From a virus: a stretch of 25,890 bases of DNA. The notes under the pieces are model-generated. The model did no database searches. It was given only the letters and a program-made list of their open reading frames with translations, and was not told where the DNA came from. Below, in pieces: positions 1 to 7,954 of the stretch. The stretch's first letter is position 1, and each line of letters begins with the position of its first letter. The position numbers and the translations under genes were made by a program. The stretch lies in UHGV virus genome UHGV-0135394, one strand, 5' to 3'.

Positions 1-118
1 CTGGAAAGTCTCTACAAAACACAATTGTACCGCTCTCAAAGAGCGGAACGAGCATCTTTGGTACGTTTCCAATGTTAACTTTTTTCATGGTATCCTGTGA
101 AAAACTAAGGAGGTTGGT

Positions 119-346
119 GTGAAGCGATGGTTCCTCATAATTACTGTTTTCGCGATCATTTACGCTATTTTCCCTGCATTAAAAGCACCAATGCAAATAA
201 TTTCACTGGCAATAATTGCAATTGGTGCTTTCATTACAGTATCCGTACTTGTGTTTAAGGTTTTAAAGTTTTTAGTTTGGCTATCAAAAGATGATGGATG
301 CAAAGTTCATCAAGAAAAAGAAGGCAAAATAACCAAAGTTGACTAA
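119..346 (+). CDS. Small two-transmembrane-helix membrane protein (75 aa), moron-like, GTG start
   Basis: Strong SD AAGGAGG at 107..113, 5 nt before GTG 119; two hydrophobic segments (residues ~4-21 and ~27-49) with charged C-tail; AT-rich relative to flanks; stop overlaps stop of convergent gp16-like gene. Confidence 0.55.
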   Translation: MKRWFLIITVFAIIYAIFPALKAPMQIISLAIIAIGAFITVSVLVFKVLKFLVWLSKDDGCKVHQEKEGKITKVD

Positions 347-2466
347 CTGTCACTAGCGAGCCATGTAATAATCCCCGTGCGGGCAATGGTTTTTGCTTCA
401 TCTGTTGATAGGGTTTTCTCCCATCTCTTAAATGCCCCAGATTGCATCAGTTTCCTTTCTATTGCGCGTCTCACTTCTGCTCTGTCTACTGGTGCGTTTT
501 GCAGGCGAAATAGCATTGATTTAAACTCAGGAGAAGACAGTAGAGCATCAGCAGCCTTTATCCTGCTTGTTTTCCCTGACATCAATGCGGACGTTATCAC
601 CCCTGTTGCACCTACACCAGGAAGACCAGATAAGCTTGTAACACCTTCCGCCGCAGCAGCTTTTGAGGCTATTCCATAAATTTTTGCTAGACTACCCTTT
701 TCCTTCAGAAAGTTATTAACTTGCTGATCCACAAGGCTGCTAGCATACTGCTTACCAGTATTGAGTCTATTCATAGCCTTGGCAGCTTGATAAATCGTAT
801 CAAGGCGCTTTGATGCATCTGTGCCAATAGCATCACGGAGAGCCTTCATATTGGCCCCATTGCGTGACATTCCGTTATACCATTTTACAAATCCATCAAC
901 CCCTAATTGCTGACCTGGTGATTTAGCATAGCTGGTAAATGCTTTATTCATTGAGGTGAGCGCAACTTCCTGCCGCATATCCTTTGGAATTGACTTCATT
1001 AATTGCCTAAAGTCACCACCGTTTCCTTTTGCCATATTAACAACGGCACTTTCAACTTTTGGAATTGCTGATTGCTGAAGTTTTCTACCCAAAACGGTTA
1101 CGGCATCATCTTCCATGGATTTTCGTTTTTTTACCAACTCCTTACCAAGCGTCCATAACTCCCCTGCGCCATATTTTTCTGCGACAGCCTGTTGGTCATC
1201 TGTTATAGCTGCATATAACTTTTTAAGAACACCTGTTTCTTCATCCTTGAATGGGCCAGAGCCTTTGCCAATAGCTTGCCCAACCTGCTTTCTAGCGAGA
1301 TCTAAACGCCCATACGTTGGCAAGGTGTTTGGATCAAGTCGGTTCAATGTCCGCTTCATTATTGGAGATAATTCATCAATTCCACCTATGTCATCAGCAA
1401 AATCCTCTAAAAAATTCAATGTATTGGTTGCCTCAATACGGTCTCTTACTGGAACCTTTTCGGCAATTTTGTTGTAGATGTTATCTGACTGATTTTGTAA
1501 TGATGAAATGGTTTTATCAAAATTATCTGCAAGCCTGTCAGAAACCAGTTGCTTATCAAGGTTTCCCCCAAATGAAGTTATCATTTCATCAGCTTTTCTT
1601 CCTAATTCAGTAATAAAGCGCTTATGCGCCTCACTAATCTCTGTTCCAGGGAGACTTGCCACTGCATTATCAAGAGCCCTGACAGCAGGATTATTAGAGA
1701 TCATTCCTGGAGTGGCATAATTTTCCAGTTCTAGCTCACGGATGGCATTTATCGCGTTAAAATCAGGATTAACTTCATCGGCGAAACCTTGAATAGCTCG
1801 TTGCCCGCCAATAAATTTATTATCCATTGCGCCAGCAGCTTTCTTTAACGTTGCTTTAGATGATTTACTCCCCATCCCTACGGATGAGCGATAAATATCC
1901 CCGGCACTATTTTTAATTTTTCCTGCAATCTTCCCAAGCGCTGGACCAACAATCTCGGCTACAGGGCCAGCCACAGCGCCAATAGCAGCGCCGGAAGCAA
2001 CATCGCCATTTGTTCCATTGGCTACAATAGCCCCTTCTCCAGCACCAAGCCCTGCGGCGGCAGCCAGCCTTGCCGCCCCTTTCGGAACCTGAGAAATAAT
2101 CCCACCACCACTAACAAATGGCGCTGCTTGTCCAACAAACTCACCAACATCTTGTGCGGTTGATGGTTTTGCCGCTAACTTCTGCTGTAGAGACTGAATT
2201 GCGGCTTGCTCTTCTGGTGTCATATCCTGAAACAGGCCAACACCTTTACCAACATCCATCAATCCACTGAGAACGCCATACATAAAACGGTCGAAACCGT
2301 TAGCATTATTAACAACATTTTCCTGTCTGGAATTTTCCTCTGGTGAAACCAAAGGAGATTGCTGCTGTTCTGGTTGGGAATCAAGCACAAAGCCATCAGG
2401 AAGTTGTGAGTTATCAGGCTGTTCATCCAGAACAAACCCCTCTGGTAAACCTACATTGGTTGCCAT
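343..2466 (-). CDS. Ejection (E) protein, P22 gp16-like (707 aa)
   Basis: Last gene of the gp7/gp20/gp16 ejection-protein series by synteny; Ala/Gly-rich large protein; start overlaps upstream gene end. Confidence 0.75.
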
Positions 2467-5809: not shown

Positions 5810-7227
5810 TACTCAATCCTTATCTGGCAGCCTGACAGAGTGACAGGTGACTTCGTGATAACGCGCAATTTGAAGCCGACATTTTTCCTGATGCGCCCGA
5901 CTCGCTTCCACAAAACACGTTTGTCATAAACGAACGGTTCATTCTGCTCAATCATCTGCTCACGCCCGTAATTGATGCCGTCAGTGGTTGCAGAGAGAAA
6001 AAGGCGGTCGGCGTACTGAGCAACGCCAGTTGAAGATTCAACTTCAAGGTCGAAAACTCTGGCGTTATCCGCTTTGAAGAGTGGAGTAAACAGCAGGTGT
6101 TCTTGCTGTAGCCCATACTGGCTGCTGATATCGAACTGCAATTTCCCAATCACCGATTCCAGCTTATCGCCGCACGTTATCTGATTGCCTTCGTAAATGA
6201 AGTCGATAGCGCGGTACACATCGTCATACAAGCCAGTTTTCAACACACACCATTGCGGACCATTGGCGCTTGAAGATGCGTCGTACACCAGAACATGGCG
6301 CGGAAGATGGATAATCAGCAGTTCATGCGCATCAAATCGCAGCGATTCCATCACACCATCAGCCAGTTCATCAGCAGTGTAGGAGCGTAGTATTTTCTCA
6401 ATGCTCGCGCTGGCGATTGGTGACACCTGACCGGATCCGATGATGTATACAGACGGCGCACCTGTTGCCGGATTGCTGATGAACGCATACGAATCAGCAA
6501 ACGGCGTTTTGCAGTAAGTCCCAGCAATGCCTTTCTGCACCATCAGCGATGGCTGTGCGACATACAAAGCAGCACCAACTGTGGTTGCACCAGTCAGGGA
6601 GAAATATTCAATCGTCGATGAACCAAAGCAGACGATGAAGTCTCGCCATGTACCTATGCCGATGATGCCGTCCGGCTGTGATTCTGCGCGATATGCTGCA
6701 CTGTATCGGTCAGGGTGCGATTCGTCTTCAAGGTCAGTGATAAACCATGAATCAGTTCCGTCTTTTGACCACGCATAACGCCCACGTAAGCGCGTAATGT
6801 CGCGAACTGAACCTAACTCGTACTGTGTGAATCCGCTGTCCGTAGGCCAGTTCGAGACGGTTTTAACCGTGCCATCATAGCGGTATTCGACCAGTTGACC
6901 ATTAACGCCTACCGCCTGTGATGTCCGCCCATGCGCCATTGATACGCGACCACTTCCGGCAACGTCACCGACTTCACTTTCGCCTTTGTAGAGCTTGCCA
7001 CCACACACGCGATAAACAGCATTCTGCGCCATGTTGTACTCGACACCGCGCGATACACCATTCACATCAGAGCGTTTGGCAATGCCCGGGAATGAGCGAA
7101 GATATCCGCTGCTGTTGAGGATTTCTTTGGGTGTAGCCAGCATATTCACTGGCAGATAGTCGATATAGTCAGCGTTTCGAAAGTCTTTGCCGACACCTTT
7201 CATAAGCGGAAGTTGCTGAATCGGCAT
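5809..7227 (-). CDS. Tail accessory factor, P22 gp10-like (472 aa)
   Basis: Near-identity over full length to recalled P22 gp10 ([11 protein letters not shown]...SGCQIRIE). Confidence 0.92.
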
Positions 7228-7728
7228 TTATTCGCTCCCGTTATCACAAGGTTCCTTTCGGTGGAAGTAATTCCAACCGTTCCACTTCGCCAACTGATTA
7301 CCGCTACCAACAGGCATACGGTTTGGATAACCGGACTTACATTTAGCGGCTTTTGCTCTGTCCATTGCAGACAGTTTGACGAGTCGCTCTTTCCCGTATC
7401 TGGCAGTGGTTATAAGTTTTGCTGACGCTTCCAGCGCATAATCCGGAGCAATGCGGCAGGCAAGGTTGAAAATGACGGCATTGATAGCGTTATTTGATAA
7501 ACCGTGCTCATCGCCCGGATCCGGAGCGACATCTGCATCAGCAAAAATGTAGCCAACGTTGATACCAGGTGACGCATCACCGCCAAGCCATTCAGCCATC
7601 ATCATTTCAAGGTCGTTGACGCCGTCTTCCATGGACTGAGGTTCGACATCGGTTAACGTGGCATTTGATGCCACACCGAGCTTACGTAATGCCGCAAGAA
7701 CTAAATCACCCTTCGTTGTCAGGTTCAT
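7228..7728 (-). CDS. Tail accessory factor, P22 gp4-like (166 aa); start placed at internal Met of the 195-aa ORF
   Basis: Homology begins at [21 protein letters not shown] (P22 gp4 starts MQIKTKGDLV...); SD-like AAGGCGG upstream of that ATG; the upstream SQSQSQ extension is read-through of a hexamer repeat. Confidence 0.85.
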
Positions 7729-7954
7729 CTGCTGCCGCCTTAGGTTTTCGACCAGGCTTTTTACGCTGTTTTTCTTCTGGCTCTGGCTCTGGCTCTGGCT
7801 CTGGCTCTGCAACATCCTTCAAAAGGTCATCAGGATGTGAAAACCAGCCAGCATCCAGATATTCCTGAAGCTCTTCGGCTTTCACGATTTCAAAGTCGTA
7901 TCCAACGCCTTTCCATTTCTTCATGTCTCCATGACTAAAGATCATGTGTGTCAT
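7706..7954 (-). CDS. Small protein (82 aa) with (Glu-Pro)5 repeat and Lys/Arg-rich tail, between coat and gp4
   Basis: GGAGA SD then ATG at 7952..7954 immediately after the coat terminator hairpin; positional equivalent of the small ORF between coat and gp4 in P22-like phages. Confidence 0.45.
7777..7809. repeat. Perfect tandem hexanucleotide repeat (CTGGCT) x5.5
   Basis: Direct reading of 7777..7809; encodes (EP)n in the small-ORF frame and (SQ)n in the frame upstream of the gp4 start. Confidence 0.95.

What the first reader, a model, noticed from the sequence alone, without database searches (positions are those of the whole stretch)
1..346. AT-rich small membrane-protein gene convergent with the last ejection-protein gene, with overlapping stop codons
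A 75-aa two-TM protein with a near-consensus SD is encoded antisense to the late operon in the slot after the last ejection gene, the same slot where P22 carries sieA and the immunity-I genes. Its AT-richness and orientation suggest an independently expressed moron, for example a superinfection-exclusion or abortive-infection membrane protein. Its stop (344..346) overlaps the gp16-like stop (343..345), so transcription of the two genes must collide. A hairpin at 30..46 (CCGCUC-UCAAA-GAGCGG) could terminate late transcripts on the minus strand.
Basis: partly seen in the sequence, partly recalled or inferred. Interest (0 to 1): 0.65.

Follow-up and report, generated by a model that had tools for sequence, protein, structure and literature searches.

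The report
Small membrane-protein gene in the P22 sieA slot
This is a real, conserved 75-residue membrane-protein gene of unknown function that a P22-like E. coli prophage carries, behind the P22 sieA promoter, in the place where P22 keeps its superinfection-exclusion gene, one of at least 13 unrelated genes found in that slot.

Summary
ORF 119..346(+) has an AAGGAGG Shine-Dalgarno 5 nt before a GTG start. It has two hydrophobic segments and 34% GC, and its stop overlaps the stop of the 707-aa gp16-like gene.

Window 1..121 is 97.5-99% identical to P22 and HK620. It contains the annotated P22 PsieA promoter (58..88, 31/31 identical), the sieA Shine-Dalgarno and the sieA start codon. Homology stops a few bases after the GTG, so the ORF is a cassette swapped into the sieA slot.

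A 57%-identical homologue sits at the same place in a diverged phage, with the same stop overlap and dN/dS of 0.32. The gene is therefore real and selected.

Across 114 viral contigs the same 21-mer precedes 13 unrelated cargo families. Twelve of them carry an N-proximal hydrophobic segment.

The protein has no detectable similarity to SieA or HkcB and matches no Pfam, PADLOC or NCBIfam family significantly. It belongs to PHROG 7294 (function unknown).

The hairpin at 30..46 is real but lies inside an hkcC-like coding sequence and has no T tract. It is not a terminator.

Superinfection exclusion at the inner membrane is the best guess for function, and it is untested.

The parts
1..88 (-). First 29 codons (MKKVNIGNVPKMLVPLFESGTIVFCRDFP) of an hkcC-like gene. 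It is divergent from the 75-aa ORF and runs off the left end of the window.
   Evidence: Translation. Annotated as hkcC in HK620 and as a 121-aa hypothetical protein in the E. coli prophages.
30..46 (.). Hairpin with a 7-bp stem, lying inside the hkcC-like coding sequence. It is not terminator-like.
   Evidence: Fold. No T tract, and not reported by the terminator scans.
58..88 (+). Homologue of the annotated P22 PsieA promoter, 31/31 bases identical.
   Evidence: AF527608 annotation and the identity check. In P22, sieA with only 85 bp of upstream sequence gives full exclusion from a single copy (PMC10883804).
89..121 (.). Conserved core between the two divergent start codons, with variable genes on both sides. 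It holds the Shine-Dalgarno AAGGAGG (107..113) and the GTG start (119..121).
   Evidence: Between loci with different cargo, identity is 94% over -31..0. It is about 36% further upstream and about 30% downstream of the start codon. Alignment.
119..346 (+). 75-aa ORF, member of PHROG 7294. Predicted inner-membrane helical hairpin: TM1 about nt 128..181, TM2 about nt 197..280, conserved charged C-terminal tail nt 281..343.
343..346 (.). Overlapping convergent stop codons (TAA on the plus strand, TAG on the minus strand).
   Evidence: The same 4-nt overlap is kept in L127 at 68% nucleotide identity.
343..2466 (-). 707-aa gp16-like ejection-protein gene (PHROG 6704, with a weak match to the PHROG 770 DNA transfer protein). 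It is the last gene of the ejection-protein set and the constant partner of the 75-aa ORF.

Best explanation
The 75-aa ORF is a genuine accessory (moron) gene in the sieA slot of a P22-like E. coli prophage.

In this window it is transcribed from the P22-type PsieA promoter and translated from the sieA Shine-Dalgarno and GTG. In its commoner genomic context it is the last gene of a transcription unit headed by an mnt-like repressor gene. It would therefore be made in the lysogen.

The product is predicted to insert in the inner membrane as a two-helix hairpin. Both ends would face the cytoplasm, only about 5 residues would face the periplasm, and the conserved charged 20-residue tail would sit in the cytoplasm.

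By analogy with SieA, my preferred mechanism is interference with the inner-membrane step of DNA delivery by superinfecting P22-like phages. Possible targets are the gp16/gp20 conduit or a host factor such as YajC.

Shown: the gene is real, it is under purifying selection, its position and expression signals are those of sieA, it is a swappable cassette, and it is hydrophobic.

Inferred: expression in the lysogen, the membrane topology, and the exclusion function.
For: Position and expression signals:
- Window 1..121 matches P22 and HK620 at 97.5-99%. The annotated PsieA is 31/31 identical, and the start codon is shared with sieA and hkcB.
- P22 sieA with only 85 bp of upstream sequence excludes P22 by more than 10^7-fold from a single copy (PMC10883804).
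- The commonest allele (P0008, found on hundreds of contigs) lies 29 nt behind a tightly spaced run of mnt-like, 92-aa and 186-aa genes.

Selection:
- The homologue in L127 is 57% identical in protein and 68% in DNA.
- dN/dS is 0.32 overall and 0.16 in the tail.
- The homologue keeps the same length, position and stop overlap.

Membrane protein: hydropathy and the positive-inside rule give 9 K/R on the N- and C-terminal sides against 1 in the loop.

A slot dedicated to the envelope:
- The same 21-mer precedes 13 unrelated cargo families, one of which is SieA.
- Twelve of the 13 have an N-proximal hydrophobic segment.
- Only 2 of 23 other proteins in the window do.

Against: - There is no detectable sequence similarity to SieA (E = 2.3) or HkcB.
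- The protein has no Pfam or NCBIfam hit and only a non-significant PADLOC hit (E = 0.046).
- It has 2 rather than 3-4 transmembrane segments and lacks the SieA motif FxRYPxEAxxFNK.
- Almost nothing is exposed to the periplasm, where the gp20 conduit lies.
- PsieA is not a consensus promoter and the scan does not flag it. In EC.P3-type contexts the sequence left of position 88 is different.
- No expression or phenotype data exist for this protein or for any cargo other than SieA.
- Linkage to one gp16 type may be no more than physical adjacency.
Confidence: 0.4

Rival explanations
1. Abortive-infection or holin-like effector. A small two-TM protein with a charged cytoplasmic tail, the topology of class II holins, permeabilises the inner membrane when triggered by an infecting phage.
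For: Predicted N-in/C-in two-TM topology with a charged C-terminal tail. Lysogen-type expression signals. A weak PADLOC match to a 4TM effector, E = 0.046, which is not significant.
Against: No holin or effector family hit in Pfam or PADLOC. The prophage has its own lambda-S-type holin (PF05106) and an Rz gene at 16.7-17.9 kb. No sensor partner is consistently linked, because the left-hand neighbour varies.
Confidence: 0.15
2. Lysogenic-conversion factor unrelated to phage defence. A small membrane protein modulates a host transporter, sensor kinase or envelope function to the benefit of the lysogen.
For: Same expression and topology evidence as above. One alternative cargo is YobH-like (PF13996), which is a host-type small envelope protein. 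All other cargos are of unknown function.
Against: The only characterised cargo of the slot is an exclusion protein. The ORF is restricted to P22-like phages and always lies next to the ejection genes.
Confidence: 0.2
3. Function tied to the adjacent gp16 in the phage's own cycle. For example, it could protect the producing cell's membrane from the membrane-active ejection protein, or tune gp16 3'-end expression by convergent transcription.
For: Wherever a full-length partner could be read, the ORF is paired with the 707/732-aa gp16 type, in every context examined. One locus (L136) has an intact ORF next to a truncated 358-aa gene. The ORF has co-diverged with gp16 (68% against 69% nucleotide identity) and keeps the 4-nt stop overlap.
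Against: The same gp16 type (97% identical) works with other cargos in S.Kent 1-2-1, L066 and L079. The ORF is antisense to the late operon, so it is poorly placed for late co-expression. Adjacency alone explains the linkage.
Confidence: 0.1
4. Spurious or decaying ORF with no function.
For: Among close alleles the substitutions are few, and pN/pS ranges from 0.3 to 1.1, which is uninformative. The family is very narrow.
Against: dN/dS is 0.32 at 68% nucleotide identity, with the frame, length and tail conserved. The Shine-Dalgarno is strong. The ORF is intact on hundreds of contigs.
Confidence: 0.03

Closest known systems
P22 SieA (superinfection exclusion protein; types A, B and C)
   Same: Same slot between genes 16 and 9. 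Same PsieA promoter, Shine-Dalgarno and GTG start. Convergent with gene 16. Predicted inner-membrane protein of a P22-like prophage.
   Different: No detectable homology (BLASTP E = 2.3; the exhaustive HMMER search finds no SieA). It is 75 aa with 2 TM against 162-164 aa with 3 TM. It lacks the FxRYPxEAxxFNK motif. Exclusion has not been tested.
HK620 HkcB and its epsilon34 homologue
   Same: Another cargo of unknown function that starts at the same GTG behind the same core and abuts gene 16.
   Different: Unrelated sequence (no alignment at E <= 100). HkcB is an N-terminally anchored coiled-coil protein of 109 aa and is linked to a different gp16 type.
The 'ant moron' region of P22-like phages (Villafane, Casjens et al. 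2008, PMC2629481)
   Same: The ORF lies in this known hypervariable region between genes 16 and 9. That paper counted ten types in sixteen genomes.
   Different: The paper describes gene content at the level of the whole region.
T4 Imm (Pfam Imm_superinfect; the family name is from my own knowledge)
   Same: A small two-TM inner-membrane protein that blocks phage DNA entry. This is the closest functional and topological analogue.
   Different: No Pfam hit at E <= 0.1. Imm belongs to a lytic phage and a different genomic context.
Class II holins and pinholins (for example phage 21 S; from my own knowledge)
   Same: About 70 aa, two TM segments, N-in/C-in, charged C-terminal tail.
   Different: No family hit. 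The ORF is not in the lysis cassette, which is intact elsewhere in the window. It carries lysogen-type expression signals.

Membership tests
P22 SieA family | Sequence homology to SieA types A, B or C, including the FxRYPxEAxxFNK motif | tested here: not met
   BLASTP E = 2.3 against P22 SieA. The motif is absent from the 75-aa sequence. The exhaustive HMMER search returns only its own cluster and P0022.
P22 SieA family | Three or four transmembrane segments in an inner-membrane protein | tested here: not met
   Hydropathy gives two segments. Localisation is not testable here.
P22 SieA family | Located between the gene 16 and gene 9 homologues of a P22-like prophage, behind PsieA | tested here: met
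P22 SieA family | Blocks DNA injection by P22-like phages | not testable with these tools
   Needs plating, K+ efflux and DNA-entry assays.
Moron (independently expressed accessory gene inserted between conserved phage genes) | Present, absent or replaced among otherwise closely related phages | tested here: met
   S.Kent 1-2-1, L066 and L079 have the same flanks and a 97%-identical gp16 but carry other cargo.
Moron (independently expressed accessory gene inserted between conserved phage genes) | Base composition deviates from its surroundings | tested here: met
   GC is 0.34 against 0.49 for the window.
Moron (independently expressed accessory gene inserted between conserved phage genes) | Own promoter | tested here: inconclusive
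   The sequence is identical to the annotated, putative P22 PsieA, but the consensus scan does not flag it. No transcript data.
Moron (independently expressed accessory gene inserted between conserved phage genes) | Own terminator | tested here: not met
   No terminator-like site lies just downstream of 346 on the plus strand. The only candidate is a weak one at 550..567.
PHROG 7294 | Profile match over the full length | tested here: met
   E = 3e-48, residues 1-75 of 75. The family has no known function.
T4 Imm / Pfam Imm_superinfect | Pfam profile match | tested here: not met
   No Pfam families at E <= 0.1.
Class II holin | Membership of a holin family and a position beside the endolysin in the lysis cassette | tested here: not met
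   No Pfam hit. The window's holin (PF05106) and Rz gene lie at 16.7-17.9 kb.
Known anti-phage defence systems (PADLOC-DB 2.0) | Significant profile match | tested here: not met
   The best hit is a 4TM effector at E = 0.046 and 11 bits.

The most novel reading that the evidence does not exclude
The roughly 34-bp stretch between the two divergent start codons (window 89..121) may be a universal recombination and expression socket of P22-like phages. Unrelated envelope-targeted genes would be swapped into it, each a distinct entry-blocking (exclusion) determinant. The 75-aa hairpin would then be a new, minimal type of exclusion protein. It would act within the bilayer or through its cytoplasmic tail on the gp16-type ejection conduit with which it has co-diverged. 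That would define exclusion groups among P22-like phages.
Probability: 0.15. Interest if true: 0.7.

Novelty: new member of a known kind. Interest (0 to 1): 0.4.

Why it matters
Leavitt et al. 2024 report that only 22 of 66 sequenced P22-like phages carry sieA. They do not say what the others carry in its place.

This analysis finds at least 12 other unrelated cargo families behind the same Shine-Dalgarno and start codon. Eleven of those 12, and SieA itself, have an N-proximal hydrophobic segment. The 75-aa ORF is one of these families, and it is under purifying selection.

This yields a short, directly testable list of candidate entry-blocking or envelope-modifying proteins. The assay system already exists: single-copy insertion at galK and hybrid P22 phages carrying foreign ejection proteins.

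If the 75-aa hairpin does exclude phages, it would be a very small tool for probing how the gp16/gp20 conduit crosses the inner membrane.

If it does not, the finding remains an ordinary uncharacterised moron.

Tried and rejected
- AlphaFold2 on the 22-sequence alignment gave one continuous helix with pTM 0.36. This is uninformative for a membrane hairpin, so I ran no fold search.
- dN/dS among close alleles (94.7-100% nucleotide identity) rested on too few substitutions. I replaced it with the L127 comparison.
- Rfam at the gathering threshold found nothing in the window.
- PADLOC, NCBIfam and Pfam gave no significant hit for the ORF, for the hkcC-like protein, for SieA or for HkcB.
- The consensus promoter scan does not recover PsieA, and its counts do not exceed the shuffles. 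The promoter claim therefore rests on identity to P22 and on the literature, not on the scan.
- The hairpin as a terminator is rejected: no T tract, it lies inside a CDS, and late read-through to the tailspike gene is expected.
- Strict one-to-one matching of cargo and gp16 type is rejected. gp16 C-terminal type 0 carries six different cargo families, and the window's gp16 type carries three.
- Literature searches for hkcB, for the protein accessions and for PHROG 7294 found no functional study. Hofer et al. 1995, which defined PsieA, is not held in the library.

Full report
**1. Observation.**
The window begins inside the accessory region that follows the ejection-protein genes of a P22-like prophage.
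- The late operon is on the minus strand. It includes gp7 (PF25688), gp20 (PF16928) and a 707-aa gp16-like gene at 343..2466.
- ORF 119..346(+) encodes 75 aa from a GTG start. AAGGAGG lies at 107..113.
- The ORF's TAA (344..346) overlaps the gp16 stop (343..345).
- GC is 0.34, against 0.44 for gp16 and 0.49 for the window.
- Hydropathy shows two hydrophobic segments (about aa 4-21 and 27-54), an MKR N-terminus, a five-residue loop and a charged 20-residue tail. K/R counts are 9 on the terminal sides and 1 in the loop, which predicts an N-in/C-in hairpin.
- The hairpin at 30..46 is real: a 7-bp stem, -13.8 and -12.3 kcal/mol, z-scores -3.6 and -2.3.

**2. What the left 121 bases are.**
- Window 1..121 is 97.5% identical to P22 and 99% identical to HK620.
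- In P22-pbi (AF527608) this stretch carries the annotated PsieA promoter. That promoter corresponds to window 58..88 and is 31/31 identical.
- The sieA CDS starts exactly at the position of window 119. HK620 hkcB starts at the same GTG.
- The three mismatches to P22 (positions 98-100) lie between the promoter and the Shine-Dalgarno.
- The alignment shows identity through the GTG and unrelated sequence after it.
- On the minus strand, 88..1 encodes the first 29 residues of an hkcC-like protein.

**3. Source and surroundings.**
- Positions 1..700 match E. coli O112ab:H8 strain Res13-Lact-EA06-22 at 100%.
- In that genome, to the left of the window, lie the rest of the hkcC-like gene, an orf59a-like gene, the immI genes (mnt-like, arc-like, ant-like), the tailspike gene and then host genes.
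- A terminator-like site lies just beyond the 3' end of the hkcC-like gene, about 270-285 bp left of window position 1. It corresponds in position to the bidirectional terminator tORF59A annotated in HK620.
- The tailspike gene is downstream of gp16 on the late strand. In P22, PLate transcription is reported to read through this region into the tailspike gene (PMC2629481).
- The 30..46 hairpin has no T tract and is not flagged as terminator-like on either strand. The terminator idea is therefore not supported.

**4. Is it a real gene?**
- The family is very narrow. A word-indexed search found 21 clusters at 78-99% identity, all from E. coli or Salmonella and all annotated as hypothetical.
- An exhaustive HMMER search of 1.84 billion representatives found only the ORF's own cluster and one other true relative, P0022. 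The other two hits were repetitive junk.
- P0022 is 75 aa and 57% identical.
- It lies on a metagenomic P22-like contig (L127) at the same position. It is convergent with a 732-aa gp16 that is 78% identical to the window's, has the same 4-nt stop overlap, and sits behind a diverged version of the core.
- At 68% nucleotide identity dN/dS is 0.32. It is 0.16 in the C-terminal tail and 0.38 in the TM part.
- The other five frames carry 3-9 stops.
- The gene is therefore real and under purifying selection, most strongly on the predicted cytoplasmic tail.
- Close alleles alone were uninformative.

**5. It is a cassette.**
- The same gp16 type (97% amino-acid identity) is found with other cargo. In Salmonella phage S.Kent 1-2-1 and in L079 the cargo is a 68-aa YobH-like protein; in L066 it is a 140-aa protein.
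- In S.Kent the left boundary falls within the first few codons after the GTG. The right boundary falls within the last few codons of gp16.
- The ORF also occurs without the socket. Its commonest allele (P0008, on hundreds of contigs) has an ATG start and a different upstream sequence. It is the last gene of a closely spaced run of mnt-like, 92-aa, 186-aa and 75-aa genes.
- In the P22-pbi record mnt is annotated as the repressor for maintenance of lysogeny. Both contexts therefore point to expression in the lysogen. This is an inference.

**6. The slot.**
- An exact scan of IMG/VR for the 21-mer AAAACTAAGGAGGTTGGTGTG returned more than 120 loci.
- In 114 of them with enough flanking sequence, the GTG opens 13 mutually unrelated ORF families. 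These include SieA type A, HkcB and the 75-aa ORF.
- Between loci with different cargo, identity is 94% over -31..0. Part of that stretch (-18..0) is fixed by the search itself. Identity is about 36% further upstream and about 30% downstream.
- The conserved element is thus only the roughly 34 bp between the two divergent start codons. The genes on both sides vary.
- PsieA lies in the left-hand gene. It is conserved in this window but not in every context; EC.P3 differs left of position 88.
- Twelve of the 13 cargo families have an N-proximal hydrophobic segment, against 2 of 23 other proteins in the window.
- None of the other cargos has a known function.
- Each cargo family is almost restricted to one gp16 C-terminal type. 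The 75-aa ORF is found only with the window's type (8 of 8 loci).
- Conversely, one gp16 type can carry up to six cargo families. The association is therefore explained by adjacency and does not prove functional matching.

**7. Literature.**
- Villafane, Casjens et al. 2008 named this region the "ant moron" and noted ten types in sixteen genomes.
- Leavitt et al. 2024 report the following:
  - sieA with 85 bp of upstream sequence suffices for exclusion from a single copy.
  - Escape mutations map to the C-terminal regions of gp16 and gp20.
  - Only 22 of 66 P22-like phages carry sieA.
  - sieA is weakly transcribed in lysogens and is up-regulated on induction.
- I found no study of this protein, of hkcB, or of PHROG 7294.

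**8. Interpretation.**
- High confidence: this is a real accessory gene in the sieA slot, carrying sieA's own expression signals, and it encodes a small membrane protein.
- Moderate to low confidence (about 0.4): it acts like SieA, blocking entry of superinfecting P22-like phages at the inner membrane.
- Against membership of the SieA family: there is no homology, a different number of TM segments and no motif.
- Rivals are an abortive-infection or holin-like effector, a host-physiology factor, and a gp16-linked role in the phage's own cycle.
- The stop overlap is one end of a range seen in this slot: 22 bp in P22, 0 in HK620, -4 here.
- The late operon should be silent in a lysogen (by analogy with P22, not shown here), so any transcriptional collision would be confined to lytic growth.

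**9. Verdict.**
The terminator idea is wrong, and the function is untested.
- The gene itself is an already catalogued hypothetical protein in a known hypervariable region, so I rate it a new member of a known kind.
- The socket analysis and the envelope bias of its cargos give a modest, directly testable lead.

Noticed in passing
window 1..88 (-); full gene at L004 8723..9088 (-) and L131 1223..1588 (-): The 121-aa hkcC-like protein contains an HExxH motif (IAHECAHMAF), which suggests a small metallopeptidase. It has no significant hit in Pfam, NCBIfam or PADLOC.
   Followed up: partly
window 353..326 (-); the same site at L002 3266..3239 (-): A promoter-like pair of hexamers (GTGACA-16-TATTTT) sits at the gp16 stop on the late strand and is also present in EC.P3. 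A transcript from it would run antisense through the whole 75-aa ORF into the hkcC-like gene. The number of such sites does not exceed the shuffles.
   Followed up: no
L002 (phage EC.P3) 1786..2657 (-): In EC.P3 the gene next to the slot encodes a SocA/Panacea-domain antitoxin (PF13274, E = 2e-24), with a 140-aa gene upstream of it. This looks like a toxin-antitoxin or defence pair inside the ant-moron region.
   Followed up: partly
L127 1785..2321 (+): In the diverged phage contig, a ClpP-family protease gene (PF00574) lies directly upstream of the 75-aa homologue on the same strand.
   Followed up: no
L066, L079 and L131, about 60 nt between the cargo stop and the gp16 stop: Loci that carry other cargo with the window's gp16 type share a stretch of about 60 nt. 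Their gp16 ends differently: ...ITWLSQQDTTASDDQPKMQ instead of ...ITWLASDS. The cassette boundary therefore lies inside the last codons of gp16.
   Followed up: partly
first codons of several cargo families: Several unrelated cargos begin with MKR(W): the 75-aa ORF, the 99-aa family and the 68-aa family. Homology to the socket therefore often extends 3-4 codons into the gene, and it supplies the positively charged start of a signal peptide or membrane anchor.
   Followed up: partly
window 343..2466 (-): The 707-aa gp16-like ejection protein is not recognised by Pfam. Its best PHROG family (6704) is of unknown function, and it matches the DNA-transfer-protein PHROG 770 only at E = 5e-27. This illustrates how diverse gp16 is.
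   Followed up: partly
L004 16021..16605 (-), corresponding to about window 7021..7605: The E. coli genome that matches window 1..700 at 100% has an HNH endonuclease gene and a truncated gene fragment annotated 'packaged DNA stabilization protein' at this place. The window instead has an intact gp4 gene (PF11650) at 7228..7815. The window therefore comes from a closely related but not identical phage. IMG/VR contig L067 matches gp16 at 100%.
   Followed up: partly
L136 4225..5301 (-): In one genome the gp16 gene is truncated to 358 aa while the 75-aa ORF is intact. The prophage may be decaying while keeping the accessory gene.
   Followed up: no
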